From: Camelus dromedarius
Lineage: Eukaryota
DNA length: 64,000 nucleotides
Direction: 5' to 3'
NCBI RefSeq assembly: GCF_036321535.1
Contig: NC_087436.1
Coordinates: forward strand, 76,076,001-76,140,000
Under the pieces are notes generated by a model. It did not search any database, was not told the origin of the DNA, and saw only the letters and a list, made by a program, of their open reading frames with translations. The translations under genes and the position numbers were made by a program. Positions 11,081-64,000 of the stretch are shown here, piece after piece; position 1 is the stretch's first letter, and every line of letters starts with the position of its first letter.

Positions 11081-13619
11081 ATGTCCAGCATGGGTTTTTC
11101 AAGCCTTGTGTCTATGTAAGAACATAGATGTAGATACTGAAATATTTCTGATCCATGGTTACCCATATGGTATTCTCATCTGTCAAGAACACGAACAAAG
11201 TTTATTGTAGAGTCTCATTGTAATCTTCAAAAGGTAAATATAGGCCGAGCTCTTTCTCAGGGGTAAGGTGGGGGCACCTGGGCTCAGATCTCACATGAAA
11301 GTCCCCAATTTCAACTCTTCTAGATCAGTTGTGTATAGTCTCAGAGATGTGCTGACAGGCTTTGAAGGCTGTTCACCTTAAACCATAGCCTTTTGTCTCA
11401 TGACCAGACCTTAATACCTATACTGCCCTATGTATTTTTAAATCCTGTAATTATCTTTTGACTAACAGTCATATTACACTATATGCTTTTTGCTAAATGT
11501 GGCAGTCAAGTATGAGCATTTTATATGTATGCTAAAATTCTATCTTTTGACTTTTCTTTTTTTAATCTCTAAAAGCTCTTAGATCCTCAGTAAGATATGG
11601 CACAGACTGTTTTAAACTTTCAGAATCCATTTATTTTGCATTTAACTTCTCTTATATCCTGATATAGGATTATATGTAAGTTGATCTGAACTGTTTTTTT
11701 TGTGTTAAGAGTGAGTTCTCAATATGTTCTGCCTAAACATATCGTCAGTAAAACAGGTTATAGTGTTACTAGCTATGTTGAGAAGTGTCTTACTTAATTT
11801 TAAAGTTTCTTCCTTTGGTGAGATTCAGTCCAATTTTTCAGGGTATGGAACTGAATCAGTGGTCACCTACTTGGAGCCTTTGTGATTTTATAGATTTAAG
11901 TGATATGTTCTCTATGCTTTAGTTACAGAATGGAATATGCCAGTGCCCTTGGCCCTTTAAGTGTCCATCCCTGAAGCTTTAAAAATATTATTAGGTTTAC
12001 TTTAATGTTTTTTGATCTACAGCCACAAACGTGTCCCAGAAATGAGCACACTATGGCTGCAAAGAAGAGTGGTTTTTGTTAATTATCTTTTTCCATTGTG
12101 TGAAAGTAAATCAACCTTGTTTTGGAGATAATCAAAAACAATTTTAGAAGTTTAAAAAGAGAAAAATTCTTCTCAGAAGTCAAGTGTTTGAGTTGCAAAG
12201 TTGACATAATCATAAAAATAAGACACAGATGTTACAAAAATATGCAAGGTAAAACATAAAAGTTGTCTTCCATTCCCCAATATGACTTTTCATCATCAGT
12301 AACTTGGTGGGTCTCTTCCCACATTTTTTTCTACTTCATATAAAGATTTCATATAAAGACTTGATAAGTCTTAGCATTGTCATACTTATTTGAAAGTGGT
12401 CTTGCATAATGCAAGATTTCATTGCTTTTTCTTCCTGATTTGTATTCTGTAATTTCTTCCTTCTAAACAGCCTTTGAAATCGCTGACTACGATACCAATG
12501 ATGGAAGCAGCAGTAATATAGTAGAAATAGCCCCAAATCATCCCCCCCAAATCCCAGATTCTGGCAATTAGTAGCCTCTCTAGTGGCATGACTTTGAGCA
12601 AATTATTTAAATTCCTTTTGTTCATTTCTGAATTTTTTTTTGTAATTCTATTATTCTTTTACCAAATAAATAGCATTTCTATGTGGATTTTCTTTTAGAA
12701 AGAAATTAAAGTACTTAATAAATAACTAAGGATGCAAAATTCAGGGAATTTTTACCTAAAAGAATCACATGGCAAAAAATAAATGAATAATTTCTAATGG
12801 GAAGAAGAGTTCAGTATTGACTATATTTTGGTATAAAGTAGACAGCTTTATATTATGATCCAGTGTAATACCCAGAATCATTAAACCATGATCTTAGCTT
12901 TTGATATACTTTAGCTTTCAAAAGAAAAGGAAAAAAAAGTTGCAGGAGATAAACTAGGCAAAATGGGAGAAATTTCATTATGACGGAATTCATTTTGCTT
13001 ATGTTCTTGTCTGTATTGTGCCTCTCTTTGCAAAGCCATTACATAAACTCTAAAGGACTTAGATTATAAATTCGACTTATATTTAGAATTCATCCATGAT
13101 ATGAATATAAAGTCTCAGTGTATTTTATATTGCTGGTGTTAGAAAATGAAATCAAGAAGCAGAAAATGTCTGCAAATCTGAGGTTGAGTGATATGTCCAA
13201 AGACTTCTAGGTAATGAAAAAGACAGATATGCTTTATCTAGTAAGCAGACATTCCCATCAGTACTTTACTGAAATGTGAAGATGGAAACTATATTATTTA
13301 CTCTAAAATTTCTTCAGAGACAGTGTTACAATCTTCTTTAGAGGCAAGTATCAATCTTGATGTCTTTCAGGTTGAAATAGAACATTTCCAATGTATTTTT
13401 TGGATATTAAAACTGGGCTGATAGAAACGTGAATGATTCCATGATGTGTGGCAAGGCAGTCTATCTTTATGGGTAGAAGAATAGCCTTGGAGAGTTGGGT
13501 TTTATTCTCCCTTCTGTCATGCTCCAGTTGTACAACTGTGATAGTTGATACACTGTCCTTGGGTTTTCCTTAACCAGTTTAAAGCAAAAAAACCCATGTA
13601 GGCACATAGATACCTGCTG

Positions 13620-14358: not shown

Positions 14359-15021
14359 TAAAAAGTTAGTAGTTATTTCAATGATGTATGCACCATAAAC
14401 TAGTCATAAAGTCAGACCTTGGTTGTCTTGTGACTCCCCTCTCTTCTGATCTATTCTTTTCCTTTCCTAATCTGGTGGAGTATGAAATAATGTTCTAATG
14501 ATGGTAATTTTTTTTCTGGGAAACTATGTGAATCAGGATGGATTCTTATTTCTAGGCAAGGTCTAAAAGGATTGGGACTGAGAATAACATCTGATTTTAA
14601 TATATATTAAAAATACATCTCTTCTTGCTGGTCTTATGCTTCTCAATATTCACTGACTCCAAATGCATAATTGTGTGATTGTTACTGCAAATCGTAGCAA
14701 AATGGTCAGTGATCAGAGCGATCTCATTTGGCACCTGTTCTTAGGATGAGAGAGGTTTGGAAATAATAGGCCCATCATTTTCATTTTTAAAGTATATCAG
14801 AGGAACAGGCTGATGAAATCCAACAATTACCTGTAGTTTGGTCCCAGCGCCACCAGTGTGGCCTGTAGTATAGGATAACATTAAAAAATTTACTGACCAA
14901 TTTGATTGACTGTTGAGTTAGTTCTGATTGGCTCCCATGATCTGATTCATTTCACTAAATTTTTGTTGCCTCACGATTAGTTATTATTGTTCCTTTTTCA
15001 GAGAAACTTAAAAGAGGCAAC

Positions 15022-16614: not shown

Positions 16615-16800
16615 ATGCTTTACAGTATCTCTAGTCTTTACAACAACTCTGACAAGTTATCTTCCTTTGCAGATTATACATATGAAACTGAGTGAGACTC
16701 AGAGAACTTAAATGACTTGCCTTGAGCGCAGATTAGGGATTGAAATGTTAGGTGTGTGGTTTCCATTCTCTGGTTCACCTCACTAAATTTTGTTGCCTCA
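16615..16800 (-). mobile_element. MIR SINE
   Basis: 'tgaaactgag..agagaacttaaatgacttgccttgag..gggattgaaat'. Confidence 0.65.
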
Positions 16801-17504
16801 GAATTCAAGCTATCATTCTTCCTTTTTTTAGTGGAAACTTCTAAAAAGGGAATGCTGCAGGAATATCTACGTCCTAATTTTTCATACAATATTTTAAAAT
16901 TTTAATCGAACCAACTATCATATAGTGTGCAGAACGAAACCACTATCCAAGCTGCAGGTACGTGTTTTGAGGGATGGAGGGTTAGTATTATCACTGAGTC
17001 ATAAGTATACAATTTATGCAGTGGGTTAAATTGGAATTTTTTTTTAATTTTGAGAACTTTGGAGGAATTTTTTAAGCATGGATGTTGCATTCAAACACAC
17101 ACACTCTACAGCCAGTTTTAATTACATGAACACTGATTATCTGATCCGAGTGCTACCCCAGTGAATCTTACTTTAAATTCTCATTAATATAAATACCTAT
17201 TTTGCTTAATTAAGTAATTTATGAAGATTATGAAAAAAGTATCAATCTATTTTTAACTGTTGTTAAAATTATCTTTATTACAAAAATTTAACGTATAATA
17301 GTATTGCAGAATATTTGGAAGACAGAGGAAGAAATCATTTATAAGCCAACAACCCTAATACAGTTAGTAAATACAATTGTCTTTTAAATTTTTTTTAGCA
17401 TTTTCTTATGCAAATCTACTTAATGGAGTTAAAATGACAATGTGCACAATTTGTTCCCTATTTTTATAGTTATGAAAAGCATTTTATAAACTACTACATT
17501 GCCT

Positions 17505-24434: not shown

Positions 24435-24668
24435 AAATTTTAGTTTAAGACTATGGACTTTGGAGCCAGACCACCTGGTTTTGAATTCCAGCTCTGCCAC
24501 TTATCAGCTGTATGTTGTAGGGCAAGTTATTTAACCTCTCTGTGACTCAGTTTACTCATCAGTAAAATCTGGATAATAATACAACTTAATTTATAGGGTA
24601 TTCTGATTAAGTGAGTTAATATATGCATGACTGTCACATAGTGAGTCAGAAGTGTTGACTATTACTCA
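24435..24668 (+). mobile_element. MIR SINE
   Basis: 'ggactttggagccagacc..ttgaattccagctctgccactta..gggcaagttatttaacctctctgtg.ctcagttt'. Confidence 0.9.
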
Positions 24669-43402: not shown

Positions 43403-43817
43403 TGTGAACAAAAAATACTGCAAACTGTATCAGTAAACAAAGGATACTGAAACCATCAAGTCATCAGCGGCTGCCGCCACCCCTCAGTGAAGACAAGCCT
43501 GCAGCCCAGCCTCTGCAGCCACTCACAATGGTGCACCCTGAGGGGACTCAGAATAAGAAAGGACAGGATACTGGCCCTAGATAGCTAGGTGCTTGTCAAA
43601 GGAATGAATTCAATGAGCCCAAATGTTTGCTTCCTCCCATACATAGAAAAGCACTGAATTCTTTTTTTTTTTAAAGAGGAAAATTAACTAATTTTATTGC
43701 ACTTGAAAAAAGCCTTCCAAGTGTTGGTTGCATCTACTAATTCTTCAGAATTCTAGGAGCTGGTGAGTGAGTTTATTAAAAAAGGGCAAGCACTTGAAAT
43801 TCGGAGCCATTGCATTT

Positions 43818-43973
43818 TTTAATACATGTACTGCTTTTTTTTTCCCTAGGGGGCAGGTAACTAAGTTTATCTATCTATTTATTTATTTAAATGGAGGCAC
43901 TAGGGACTGAACCCGGGACCCCAGGCACGCAAAACACACACTCCCCCACTGAGCCATTCCCTTCCCTGCCCTA
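43818..43973 (-). mobile_element. Camelid Vic-1-type tRNA-derived SINE with 14-bp TSD
   Basis: 'gggggcaggtaactaagtttat..aatggaggcactagggactgaacccgggacc..ccactgagccattcc'; exact TSD gagccattgcattt at 43804-43817 and 43974-43987. Confidence 0.85.
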
Positions 43974-44044
43974 GAGCCATTGCATTTAAATCCTGGTCCG
44001 ACCACTTGTCAGTTGGGTAACTTTGGGCAATAAGAGTGGCTCCT

Positions 44045-44515
44045 ATTTTCTGAGTGCGTTCTTTGGACCAGGCACGTTAAACACATGATCTCATTTAATC
44101 TTCATAATAAGCATGAAGTGGATATTATTCCCAATTATCATCTCCATTTTACAAATAGAGAAATGAAGGCTGAGAGAAATTATTTGTTCAGGGTTGGATA
44201 CATGATAAATGACAGAAAAGTAATGTGAATGAGGTCTGCGTGGCTCCAGAGTTCTTAAATGTGGTGCCATACCTCCTCCAAGTTATAATGTACCTAAGGT
44301 ATTAAATCTTTATGAGCTTCGTTCGGTTTCATCATCTGTAAAGCACCTAATAGTCATGACTAACATTCCTGAGTGCTTACTGTCTTCCAGGCATTTTCTA
44401 AATGCCGACATACCTTATCTCATTTAATTCTCACAGAGTTCTAATGAATAGGAACTACTTTTATCCCCATTTTACAGGAGACACTGAGGCATAGCGGTGT
44501 TAAGAAACTGACCTG
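44045..44515 (-). mobile_element. Two antisense MIRs (plus sense MIR pieces) inside the retroposed segment
   Basis: 'atctcatttaatcttc..ctccattttacaaatagagaaatgaaggctgagaga' and 'atctcatttaattctcac..atccccattttacaggagacactgaggcatag..gttaag'. Confidence 0.85.
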
Positions 44516-44518
44516 GCA

Positions 44519-44542
44519 AGGAGGGTATAGCTCAGTGGTAGA
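44519..44542 (+). mobile_element. 5' head fragment of a Vic-1-type SINE
   Basis: 'ggagggtatagctcagtggtaga' (tRNA A-box-like head), cut off at the insertion boundary. Confidence 0.65.
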
Positions 44543-44764
44543 CCCTGAAAGCACTAAATTTTTTAACGTGAGATGCCTGGTTTTCTTTAGATAACAAGTA
44601 ATCTTTTATTGTTCCAAATACCTGGTCTTTGTTGTAAAGCTCCTATTTATCCTAGCTCCTCCCCTACCCCTTCGGAGCAGTCCCTCAGCGTGATCTGAGA
44701 GGCTGTCCTCCTGGCTTGAGTCCTCCCGCCAAATAAAACATAACTCTCAACTTTTGGTATCATC

Positions 44765-47700
44765 ATATTTATTTAGCCATTCTAGTGAGTGTTCAGTGTT
44801 AACTTCATTCTGGTTTTAATTTGTATTTCTCTGATAATTAAAGAGGTTGAGTACTTTTAAATCAACTTTTCCAAGACACAATTGGTATAATAAGTTATAC
44901 ATATTGCAAGTGTACAATTTGATAGGTTTTAAGATACGTATACATTTGTGAAACCGTCATGTAATCAAGATAATGCACTATCCATATCCAAAGAGTTTCA
45001 TTGTGCCCTTTTGAAATTCCTCTTTTCCCCTCCCAACCTCCATCTATTTTCTGTTATTATAAGTAGTTTGAAAATTCTAGAATTTTATATATGAAGGATC
45101 ATATATTATGTACTCTTATTTGTCATCTTTCACTTAGCACAATTATTTTAATTTTTATCAAGGATGTTGTGTATATAGTAGTTCATGCTTTTTATTGTTG
45201 AGTAGCATTCCACCATATGGATATACCAAATGTACATTCCATTCACCTGTTGATTGGCATCTGGACTGTTTCTACTTTTTAGTTATACAAATAAAATTGC
45301 TATGAACATTCGTGTTTAAATTTTTGAATAGACATATGCTTTCATTTTGGTAAATACATAGGAGCAGAATGGCTAGGTTATGAGTCAGGTATATGTTTAA
45401 CTTTTTAAAAACTGCAAACAAGTTTTCCAAAGTGGTTACTATTGTACATTCCCATTAACAGTAAATGAAAATTCCAATTGCTTTGCTTCCTCACCAACCT
45501 TTGAAAAGGTTAATCTCTTTAATTTTAGCATTCAAATAGATGTCGAGTGGTATCATATGTTTGTTTTGCTTTGCATTTCCCTACTGATTAATGATATTGA
45601 GCATCTTTTTTTAATCTAAGGTGTCAAATCCACTAGAATAAAGTTGTTTACTGTTCCCTTATTGTCCTTTTAATATGTACAGAATCTGTAGTGAAGTTGC
45701 CTCTGTTATTCCTGGCATTAGCTATCTGTGTTATCTCTTTTTTTGTTCCCCGTTAGTCTTGTTAGAGATTTATTAATTTTATTGGTCTTCCTAAAGAAGC
45801 ACTTTGAAAAGCATTGATTTTTTCAATTGATTTTCTGTTTTCTATTCAATTCATATTTGCTCTGATTTTTATTATTTTATTTCTTTTAATTACTTTGGGT
45901 TTAATTGTTTTTCCTTTTCTAAGGAACGTGGGGTTATTGATTTAAGACCTATTTTAATAGAGACATTTAGTGCTATATATTTCCCTCCAAGTACTGCCTT
46001 AAAAACATCCCATAGATTTTGATATGTTGTATTTTTCATTCTCATTCAATTCAAAATACTTTATAATTTCTCTTTTGACTTCTTCTTTGACCCATGAAGT
46101 TTGTTATTTGAGAGTTCTTCAGATACTTTTATACATTTCCAGTTTAATCTGTTTGTGGTCAGATAGTCCGTATACCTTATAAGACTTGAAATCCTTTAAA
46201 TTTATTAGACTTGTTTTATGACCCAGAATACAGTTCTGTCTTGGTAAATGGTCATGTGCACTTGAAAAGAATGCATATTCTGCTATTGTTGGTGGAATTC
46301 TTTATTAATGCCAAGTATACCAATTTTGTTGTTAGTGTTGTTTGTCTTTTATGTCTTTAATGATTTTCTGTCTACTTGTTCTATCAATTATTGGGAGAGG
46401 AGAGTTGAAATCTCCTCCTAAGTGTAGATTTATCTATTTTCCTTCCAGTTCTGTCAATTTCTGTGTTTGAAACTCTGTTATTAGGTTAATAAATGGTTAG
46501 AATTGGTATGTCCTTTGGTGAATTGACTTCATTATCCTTGTAGAGTGATCCGTTTTATCCCTAGTGATATTGTTTACTCAGAAATTTACTTTAATATTAA
46601 TGGAGCCACTTCAGTGTGCCTTTGATTAGTGTTATCCTGGTATATTTTTTCTCATCTTTTTACCTTTAATCTAGTGTGTCTTTATATATAAACAGTGTTT
46701 CTTGTGGGAAGCATTTTGTTGGATCTTTTTCTATCTAATCTGCTAATCTTTGCTTTTGGGACATTTAGGTCCTAGGTCATTTACATTGGTATGTTTAGGT
46801 TTAGTTCTGCTATCTTGCTTTTTTGTTTGTTATTTGTTCCCTTTTCCCTTCTCGTCTGCTTTCTTTTGCATTAATAGAGATTTTTTTCAATGATTTAATT
46901 TTATCACCTTTGTTTTATTGTTACTTATAATTTTTTGATGTGTTATTTTAGTAGTTGCTTTGGTGTTCATAGTATAATTTTTAGCTTATCTCAGTCTGTC
47001 TTCAAGTGTTATGATTTACTTCATGTTTAGTGCAAGTAATGTTTAGTACTAGTACTTTTGGATAACTTTTTTTTTTTTTCTTAACTATGTCTTAAAGCTC
47101 ACTATTCTCTTCTCTGGCAATATGTACCCTGTTAATCCCATCAGTTGTATTTTCATTTAAGACCTTGCTTTCAACTCTAGAAATACAATTTGGTCCTTTT
47201 AAAGAATATATTGTTCATATCTCTGCTTAAATGTTAGTTTTTTCTCTAGCTTCTTGAACATATTGAATACAGTTAGAATAACTTTAATATACTTGTATAT
47301 GCTATCATCTGTGTCATATTTGTTTTGCATTGACTTTATTGACTTTTCTCATTGTGATCATTTATTTGTATGCCTTTTAATTTTTAATTTGATACCAGAC
47401 ATTGTAAATTTTAACTTGTTGGATCCTGGAAGTTTTGCAATCCTGTAAATATTTCTAAATATTTATGTATTTATGTTGTGGTACTTGGAAACAGCTTGAT
47501 TCTTTCAGTTCTTGCTTTTAAGCTTTGTTAAACACGACCATAACACTATTTAATCAATGGCTAATTTACCCCAGTACTGCGGGAAAACACTTCTGAACGC
47601 TCTACCAAATCTCCATGAAGTGTGAGCCTTTACAATCTGTCTGATAAGAACAAACAAGTCTGGCTCTGGGTGTGCTCTGGGCAGTGTCTTTTCTAATGCT

Positions 47701-62811: not shown

Positions 62812-64000
62812 AGCAATATATATTTATAACTAATCCAAGTCTACTTTCATATAAAACTATACCACCTCACAGGTAGTGTGAGTACTTTATAACAAAATAA
62901 TCTTAATTTCTCCCTCCCATCCCCTGTATCATTCATTCATTTCACTTATACATATATATCTATGTATGTAAACATACATAATAGAATAGATTGTTACTAT
63001 GATTAGTTTGAACAAACTGTTGTCTGTTAGATAAATTAAGAATTAGAAAATAAAAGTTTTTAATTTACCTTCACTTATTCTTTCTCTGATGCTCTTATTT
63101 TTCTTTATGTAGTTTCAAGTTTCTGATTTATATAATTTTTCTTCTCCCTAAAAGACTTCTTTTAACATTTACGTAGTTTCAAGTTTCTGATTGATAGTAC
63201 TGTAAATAGGCATATTTGTAATGAGGTGGTGAAGTATGGGAGAGGGGACGTGTTATATAGTCCTATGATTAGGTCTTGGTCCTTTAGTGATCCTGTACCT
63301 CTAGACTGTGACACTTCACAAATTCTTCTCACTCCCCACCACCAAAACCTCAGGTGAGACAGCACGGCAAGACTGGACTGGAGTTGAGTATTTCACTTCC
63401 CCGAGGTCAGTTAGGCTCTGATAAAACCCCAGCTGATTGGGCTCTGGTTACCTAGTTTCTCCTGAGGTCAGGACTTGTTATTAAAAAGAAAAAAAGAACA
63501 GAGTGTTCTGACTTCAAAATGGTTCCTTTTCCACTCTTCCTGCTGGAAGTTCAGGATTTTTTTCCCCATTATTTACTTTGAGGACCTGGTAAGATTCTTG
63601 TAGGTAAAATTCACAAAGTGTGCCCCACTCTGAAACCACAGGGTCCTCTGGAGTTTTTAATCCGAGTTTACAGCAATTTGTCAATTACAGTTCAGGTTTT
63701 CCTACTCCAGCCCTGATTCCTGTGGTTTCAGCTCAGGGGTTTCTGCTCCTGTAAACTGTGATTGTATTTGCTTTTTGGAGTCTCTAGTTTGGGGGCCAGT
63801 GGTTTGCCCTGTGACCTCACTTCTTTTACAGACCTGAGAAGAGTTGCTGACTTTTCGGTTTGTTTAGCTTTTAACTTGTTAGGACAGAGTGGTGACTTCC
63901 AAGTTTCTTGGAAATGGGACTGAAAACTAGAAGTATCTATTTAGGCCTTTAAAAATTTCTCTCAGCAATGTCCTATAGTTTTCAGTGGGTAGGTCTTGCA
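62812..64000 (-). mobile_element. L1MD/MC-like 5' region (inter-ORF segment joined to 5'UTR)
   Basis: 'tttaccttcacttattc..aaagacttcttttaacattt' then 'tatagtcctatgattaggtct..gagtatttcacttcccc..gccctgtgacctcacttct..agaagagttgctga'. Confidence 0.75.

What the first reader, a model, noticed from the sequence alone, without database searches (positions are those of the whole stretch)
43648..44564. Age paradox: a polyadenylated piece of foreign genomic/UTR sequence carrying ancient MIRs was retroposed into a young LTR
Seen: the LTR (43403-44757) is interrupted by ~885 bp flanked by a 13-17 bp duplication (aaagcactgaattcttt / aaagcactaaattttttaac). The insert has a T11 run at its left end and a minus-strand AATAAA 20 nt from it, and the restored target ends in YTTT/AA. 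The insert holds no recognisable L1 sequence, only unique DNA, several MIR pieces, a full SINE and a truncated SINE head. Established: TSD, poly(A) and a TTTT/AA-like site are L1 target-primed reverse transcription hallmarks, and MIRs stopped moving long before lineage-specific LTRs. Inference: the MIRs were carried in as passengers of a host RNA (3'UTR or lncRNA) or an orphan 3' transduction, so a source locus should exist elsewhere.
Basis: partly seen in the sequence, partly recalled or inferred. Interest (0 to 1): 0.75.

Follow-up and report, generated by a model that had tools for sequence, protein, structure and literature searches.

The report
L1-made host RNA copy in LTR
An 880-base piece of ordinary non-coding DNA carrying old repeats was most likely copied from a polyadenylated RNA and pasted by the LINE-1 machinery into a retroviral LTR remnant; this is a known kind of genomic accident, and its source was not found.

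Summary
The anatomy is real. An 883-nt block (43665-44547) lies between two 17-nt direct repeats (15 of 17 identical). It starts with a T11 run, has a minus-strand AATAAA 20 nt from that run, and the right repeat ends TTTT|AA. All three hallmarks point the same way, as expected of a minus-strand LINE-1 target-primed insertion. Two MIR-like pieces are well supported and two weakly. A full SINE has its own 14/14 duplication, and a SINE head is cut off at the 5' junction.

There is no paradox: old repeats rode in as passengers. This matches class 1 templated sequence insertions, orphan transductions and UTR-only retrocopies.

The decisive tests could not be run: no genome was held, no read-level view was obtained, and no outside copy of the LTR or of the source was found. 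So contiguity of the LTR halves, the LTR's 'youth' and the source locus rest on recall or inference. RNA-run hits do not show expression. The scan noted the same kind of event on other DNA (e1-7856071).

L1-mediated insertion about 0.8 overall; new member of a known kind; interest 0.25.

The parts
43403..43647 (+). Left part of a solo LTR-like element (U3 side); starts with TG
   Evidence: GC 0.48 against 0.24-0.29 in the left flank. ERV1-type identity is recalled, not tested.
43648..43664 (+). Left copy of the 17-nt target-site duplication
   Evidence: 15/17 to the right copy
43662..43672 (-). T11 run, read as the remains of the poly(A) tail (8 nt beyond the duplication)
   Evidence: Non-templated origin is inferred.
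43673..43774 (-). Unique 3' end of the insert
   Evidence: No credible match elsewhere in the window
43693..43698 (-). AATAAA poly(A) signal 20 nt from the tail (a second one at 43772-43777)
   Evidence: chance level
43775..44035 (+). MIR-like piece split by the SINE (weak)
   Evidence: 51/71, z 5.2 against 1 of 8 reference copies
43804..43987 (-). Full tRNA-type SINE (43818-43973) with its own 14/14 duplication at 43804-43817 and 43974-43987
   Evidence: Vic-1 name is recalled.
44036..44270 (-). MIR-like old repeat, near full length
   Evidence: 112/154, z 8.5; hits 4 of 9 reference copies
44290..44350 (+). Short MIR-core-like piece (weak)
   Evidence: 31/43, z 4.6 against 1 of 9 reference copies
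44365..44514 (-). MIR-like old repeat
   Evidence: 73/101, z 9.6; hits 4 of 9 copies; 80/115 to the piece at 44036-44270
44515..44542 (+). SINE head with A box only, cut off at the insert's 5' junction
44543..44547 (.). Five extra bases (CCCTG) at the 5' junction, origin unresolved
44548..44564 (+). Right copy of the duplication, followed by AAC (TTTT|AA endonuclease-type site)
44565..44762 (+). Right part of the LTR-like element: TATA-like TATTTAT 44644-44650, AATAAA 44732-44737; right end uncertain (44753-44762)
   Evidence: L1-like sequence resumes near 44756 (73/99 to 45508-45609, z 8.4).

Best explanation
In a germ-line cell of the (probably camelid) ancestor, LINE-1 ORF2p nicked the plus strand of a solo LTR at YTTT|AA. 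The freed T-rich end primed reverse transcription on the poly(A) tail of a host Pol II RNA, picked up in trans: the end of a 3' UTR or lncRNA, or an intronic/intergenic RNA cut at a cryptic AATAAA. Copying stopped after about 875 nt, inside an antisense SINE. A second nick 17 nt away gave the duplication. The MIR-like pieces, and at least the truncated SINE, were already in the source and came as passengers. The insert splits the LTR about 80 nt upstream of its TATA-like box and most likely does nothing. Shown: duplication, T run, signal, target motif, their shared polarity, repeat content. Inferred: RNA intermediate, non-templated tail, source locus, trans rather than cis, contiguity of the LTR halves.
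For: A 15/17 duplication with no rival partner in the window, at both boundaries between LTR-like and MIR/SINE DNA. Only 1 of 49 long T/A runs has a 15/17 duplicate plus the endonuclease-type dinucleotide. AATAAA lies 20 nt from the tail, on the tail's strand. The SINE head ends 5 nt from the right copy, as a 5' truncation would leave it. These are the three features defining class 1 insertions, which include polyadenylated intronic or intergenic fragments moved in trans (PMC5110952, parts 1-3 of 4 read). In 1,019 human genomes 216 of 292 polymorphic processed pseudogenes were monoexonic, against 48 orphan transductions (PMC12350158, passages).
Against: No source locus was seen: none in the window, no genome held, and a protein search on a frame across the right junction found nothing. 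The tail is only 8 nt beyond the duplication, shorter than the 10-40 A of PMC5110952. The poly(A) signal alone is weak: 6 of the 48 other runs have one. Contiguity of the LTR halves was not tested, because no other copy was found. Trans and cis cannot be told apart here.
Confidence: 0.55

Rival explanations
1. Orphan 3' transduction: a full-length L1 read through its own poly(A) signal, ended at this AATAAA, and the copy was truncated before any L1 sequence was reached. Same enzyme and same hallmarks, but in cis.
For: All hallmarks above. MIR-dense content fits intronic or intergenic DNA (MIRs are 1.55-1.76% of camelid genomes, PMC8605555 passages). No match to the L1-like fragments of the window apart from an AT-rich 30-mer.
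Against: Orphans were rarer than monoexonic retrocopies in human data (48 against 216). It needs at least 875 nt of read-through and an L1 next to the source, neither seen.
Confidence: 0.25
2. DNA-level or repair-type templated insertion (break repair, template switching) that copied a genomic segment ending in a genomic A/T run, with the poly(A) signal there by chance.
For: Short tail. A signal near a run is not rare (7 of 49). Five unexplained bases at the 5' junction, and TAGA occurs both at the end of the SINE head and just before the left copy.
Against: Class 2 insertions lack duplications, tails and signals. It would need a 17-nt duplication, the TTTT|AA site and the signal to share one polarity by chance.
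Confidence: 0.1
3. No insertion: the MIR-rich block is native, and two separate LTR fragments (or a local rearrangement or mis-assembly) flank it, sharing a 17-nt overlap.
For: Contiguity is untested. The element has no clean outer duplication. The L1-like flanks could not be shown to be one interrupted element (inconclusive).
Against: The two parts share nothing on the same strand except the 17-mer (z -0.2 without it), and their motifs lie in LTR order. The 17-mer abuts a T run with a signal. By recall only, the two parts are consecutive in an LTR family also present in ruminants.
Confidence: 0.07

Closest known systems
Class 1 templated sequence insertion (Onozawa and Aplan, PMC5110952)
   Same: Duplication of at least 5 bp, TTTT/A target, poly(A) 10-30 nt after an AATAAA, non-L1 intronic or intergenic content moved by ORF2p
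   Different: Defined there as human polymorphisms with a mapped donor and 10-40 A. Here the tail is 8-11 nt, the duplication has drifted, the donor is unknown and polymorphism is untested.
Orphan L1 3' transduction (as classed in PMC12350158)
   Same: Poly(A)-tailed insert of non-exonic DNA with no retroelement body
   Different: No source L1 or source locus shown here
5'-truncated, monoexonic processed pseudogene (UTR-only retrocopy)
   Same: 5' truncation, tail, duplication, endonuclease site (hallmarks as in PMC12016303, passages)
   Different: No parent exon identified; no coding remnant evident (longest minus-strand frame inside the insert 63 aa); content is repeat-rich
Nested-TE chronology (Giordano et al., PMC1914374)
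   Different: The MIRs here did not transpose; they were carried, so the rule is not broken

Membership tests
Class 1 templated sequence insertion / L1 TPRT product | Target-site duplication of at least 5 bp | tested here: met
   17 nt, 15/17
Class 1 templated sequence insertion / L1 TPRT product | Insertion at 5'-TTTT/A-like site | tested here: met
   Right copy ends TTTT, left copy CTTT, followed by AAC
Class 1 templated sequence insertion / L1 TPRT product | AATAAA 10-30 nt upstream of the tail | tested here: met
   20 nt; 6 of 48 other runs also have one
Class 1 templated sequence insertion / L1 TPRT product | Non-templated tail of 10-40 A | tested here: inconclusive
   Run of 11, 8 beyond the duplication; needs the source to show it is non-templated
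Class 1 templated sequence insertion / L1 TPRT product | Intact donor locus elsewhere in the genome | not testable with these tools
   No genome; none in the window; no read-level view obtained
Class 1 templated sequence insertion / L1 TPRT product | Polymorphic (empty allele exists) | not testable with these tools
   One search shows the insert's words in genome-sized runs of three organism labels but says nothing about junctions
Orphan 3' transduction | No L1 sequence in the insert | tested here: inconclusive
   No match to in-window L1-like pieces beyond an AT-rich 30-mer; no L1 library available
Orphan 3' transduction | Source lies downstream of a full-length L1 | not testable with these tools
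   Source not found
Processed pseudogene | Aligns to annotated exon(s) of a parent gene | not testable with these tools
   No camelid annotation at hand; frame search empty
Solo ERV LTR | TG...CA ends with a 4-6 bp duplication | tested here: inconclusive
   TG at 43403; 6 candidate end/duplication pairs, none with both TG and CA
Solo ERV LTR | TATA-like box followed by a poly(A) signal near the 3' end | tested here: met
   TATTTAT 44644-44650, AATAAA 44732-44737
Solo ERV LTR | Both parts match consecutive positions of one multi-copy family | not testable with these tools
   No other copy found; resemblance is recalled
MIR | About 65-75% identity to other dispersed copies of the same old repeat | tested here: met
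   Two pieces at 72-73% to the copy near 24450; two weaker pieces
MIR | Match to the MIR consensus | not testable with these tools
   No repeat library; the name is recalled
Vic-1 (camelid simple tRNA SINE) | A and B boxes, A-rich tail, own duplication | tested here: met
   (full copy); the head has the A box only
Vic-1 (camelid simple tRNA SINE) | Match to the Vic-1 consensus | not testable with these tools
   SINEBase passage names vic-1 as a simple SINE of camels but no sequence was compared

The most novel reading that the evidence does not exclude
The insert is one copy of an undescribed camelid non-autonomous retroposon built from MIR-rich host DNA, re-mobilised many times and seeding fossil MIRs into younger DNA; here it replaced the upstream enhancer region of an LTR whose TATA-bearing half could still fire in reproductive tissue. 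Nothing seen excludes this, because copy number could not be counted.
Probability: 0.05. Interest if true: 0.6.

Novelty: new member of a known kind. Interest (0 to 1): 0.25.

Why it matters
As a single event it matters little: L1 has been copying non-coding RNA ends into mammalian genomes throughout their history. It has three modest uses. It could be a presence/absence marker for camelid phylogeny. It is a clean example of why an old repeat inside a younger one need not break nesting-based dating. Once the source is found, it would record a germ-line poly(A) site or an active L1 of the camelid ancestor. It would matter more only if the block proved multi-copy or altered the LTR's promoter activity.

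Tried and rejected
Whole genome: none held.

Paralog in the window: none. Rfam: 0 matches in the window.

Other copies of the LTR by short motif: 7 of 7 viral hits and 21 of 21 metagenome hits were chance; none matched beyond 28 nt or matched the right part. A second motif gave 0 in genome contigs and 0 in viral contigs. Plasmids gave no match. The scan's own index gave 0 look-alikes. A full-text search for the two motifs gave 0 papers.

Spurious-frame searches, hoping for translations of other copies: 1 hit among 1.84 billion representatives, a 566-aa repeat protein unrelated to the window; 1 candidate and 0 hits for a frame across the right junction.

RNA holders as proof of expression: rejected. 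Of 4 rows on record as RNA the shares were 0.89, 0.75, 0.24 and 0.00; three guessed-RNA rows had 0.65, 0.53 and 0.06. The four highest hold 787-984 million letters of contigs, against about 2,000 million for the genome-sized runs, so intronic RNA or DNA carry-over explains them, and a 939-million-letter run of the same study held none. Contigs give no strand or end.

Pol III read-through from the internal SINE as the source: rejected, because the SINE has its own duplication and 560 nt of insert lie upstream of it.

Twin priming or a template switch for the SINE head: not supported; the head follows the MIR-like piece directly and is antisense to the insert (inference).

Inverted similarity between the LTR parts: depends on scoring (z 5.6 or 2.5; 3 of 1260 window tiles score as high); not used.

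A z 5.1 hit of the unique end near 12500 was a heavily gapped AT-rich alignment, so z near 5 under this scoring is weak, also for the two small MIR pieces.

Contiguity of the L1-like flanks: inconclusive.

Full report
Verdict. That is a known class of event. The source locus and the empty LTR were not seen, so the mechanism is inferred from local hallmarks.

Setting. The window is AT-rich mammalian non-coding DNA (GC 0.26-0.47 per 2 kb) with no Rfam match. I saw no obvious coding exon on reading all of it (one search lists 14 stop-to-stop frames of 100 aa or more, none followed up). No genome is held. That it is a camelid rests on unchecked notes of this scan for the same genome and on a recalled SINE resemblance.

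The duplication. AAAGCACTGAATTCTTT at 43648-43664 and AAAGCACTAAATTTTTT at 44548-44564 match at 15 of 17. Each is the other's only partner at that level in 64 kb on both strands; one further 14/17 match to the left copy lies on the minus strand. Random 17-mers have a 15/17 partner within 2 kb in 8 of 3000 trials. Near long T or A runs loose duplicates are common: 14 of 49 runs at 14/17 within 6 kb, 5 of 49 at 15/17. Only this run has 15/17 together with the endonuclease-type dinucleotide.

Tail, signal and target. The T run is 11 nt, 8 of them beyond the duplication. TTTATT lies 20 nt from it, and the right copy ends TTTT followed by AAC. A signal that close is modest evidence alone: 7 of 49 runs, this one included, and 4.7% of random positions. 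The weight comes from polarity. A plus-strand nick at YTTT|AA priming on a poly(A) tail gives exactly duplication, T run, antisense insert, duplication, AA. The mechanism is as described in PMC12016303 (passages).

Content of the insert. Two pieces (44036-44270 and 44365-44515) each align with 4 of 9 old repeat copies chosen by eye elsewhere in the window, best 112/154 (z 8.5) and 73/101 (z 9.6), and with each other at 80/115. Two smaller pieces reach only z 4.6 and 5.2 against one copy each; a control segment reached z 5.1 by a gappy AT-rich alignment, so these two are weak. The name MIR is recalled. A full SINE on the minus strand has a 14/14 duplication and A- and B-box-like motifs; it may have arrived before or after the insertion. 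A second SINE is reduced to a 28-nt head that matches the first at 21 of 25 columns (0 of 1000 shuffles) and stops 5 nt before the right duplication. The simplest reading is that reverse transcription ended inside a SINE already present in the source. If that SINE is Vic-1, which SINEBase lists as a SINE of camels (passage), the event is camelid-specific; this is inference.

The host element. The flanking parts stand out in GC (0.48 and 0.45 against 0.24-0.29 in the left flank), start with TG at 43403 and carry a TATA-like box and AATAAA in LTR order. They share no same-strand similarity beyond the 17-mer. The right end is unclear: 6 candidate end pairs, none with both TG and CA, and L1-like sequence resumes near 44756. 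From recall only, both parts resemble consecutive portions of an ERV1-type LTR family also found in ruminants. I found no outside copy to test this. 'Young' is not shown: the left part has 2 CpG (o/e 0.14), the right 4 (0.45), window 0.18.

Distribution and age. Of 24 runs listed, 20 hold the insert or part of it and 18 hold half or more of its 88 sampled words. Fourteen genome-sized rows of three organism labels hold 0.83-0.98; they come from 8 studies, 7 after leaving out the possible source. So the sequence is not private to one assembly, but word shares cannot tell this copy from a near-identical source, nor show junctions. Expected shares are 0.91 at 0.3% divergence, 0.39 at 3% and 0.08 at 8%. 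The duplication differs at 2 of 17 sites (95% interval 1.5-36%), compatible with an old event but not a date. The RNA rows do not show expression (see Tried and rejected). No read-level view was obtained, which leaves the empty site, the junctions and the source open.

Mechanism and odds. L1-mediated insertion about 0.8 in all: trans-mobilised host RNA end 0.55, orphan 3' transduction 0.25. Repair-type DNA insertion 0.10; no insertion or mis-assembly 0.07. The split between the first two is soft. Human data give 216 monoexonic of 292 processed pseudogenes against 48 orphans, and that paper calls any insert that aligns outside exons an orphan (passages), while the repeat-dense content leans to non-exonic DNA (inference).

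Comparison with what is known. PMC5110952 (parts 1-3 of 4 read) defines class 1 templated insertions by the same three features and names polyadenylated intronic or intergenic fragments as templates. It works like one: three features met, the tail inconclusive, donor and polymorphism untestable, so membership is probable, not shown. PMC1914374 (passages) gives the rule that old elements do not insert into new ones; passengers do not break it. PMC8605555 and PMC6726744 (passages) describe camelid repeats without this locus in the passages seen. Nine searches of the held library listed no paper on this locus; the library lacks most subscription papers and I read no supplements, where repeat tables could bear on the LTR family. 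The scan holds an unchecked note of the same kind of event in another genome (e1-7856071) and none near this place.

Scores. New member of a known kind; interest 0.25. Boldest open reading: a multi-copy camelid retroposon made of MIR-rich host DNA that rewired an LTR promoter, probability 0.05, interest 0.6 if true.

Noticed in passing
window 43494-43599 and 44632-44718: Weak inverted similarity between the two LTR parts; z 5.6 or 2.5 depending on scoring, 3 of 1260 tiles as high. Possibly an intrinsic imperfect inverted repeat of the LTR.
   Followed up: partly
window 44751-44762: The LTR's right end has no clean CA plus duplication and runs into L1-like DNA; the last LTR bases may have been deleted.
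   Followed up: partly
window 44539-44547 and 43644-43647: TAGA ends the SINE head and also precedes the left duplication; five extra bases separate it from the right copy. It may be junction microhomology or chance.
   Followed up: no
window 1-64000: Only two SINE-head matches of this type were seen in 64 kb and both lie inside the 883-nt insert (4 matches, two others look like chance), which fits DNA brought from a more SINE-rich region.
   Followed up: partly
window 1-64000: Scan notes place casein 6.4 Mb and SLC4A4 5.5 Mb before the window; PMC6726744 maps casein to camelid chromosome 2. From recalled synteny the window could lie in a large FRAS1 intron; untested.
   Followed up: no
window 63092-63122 and 63170-63195: A short direct duplication (gtagtttcaagtttctgatt) about 78 nt apart at an L1-like to MER-like boundary, seen on reading.
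   Followed up: no
window 14930-15005 and 16765-16840: Similar stretches around 'cactaaattttgttgcctca' occur twice about 1.8 kb apart, the first interrupted by an L1 3' end; possibly an old local duplication.
   Followed up: no
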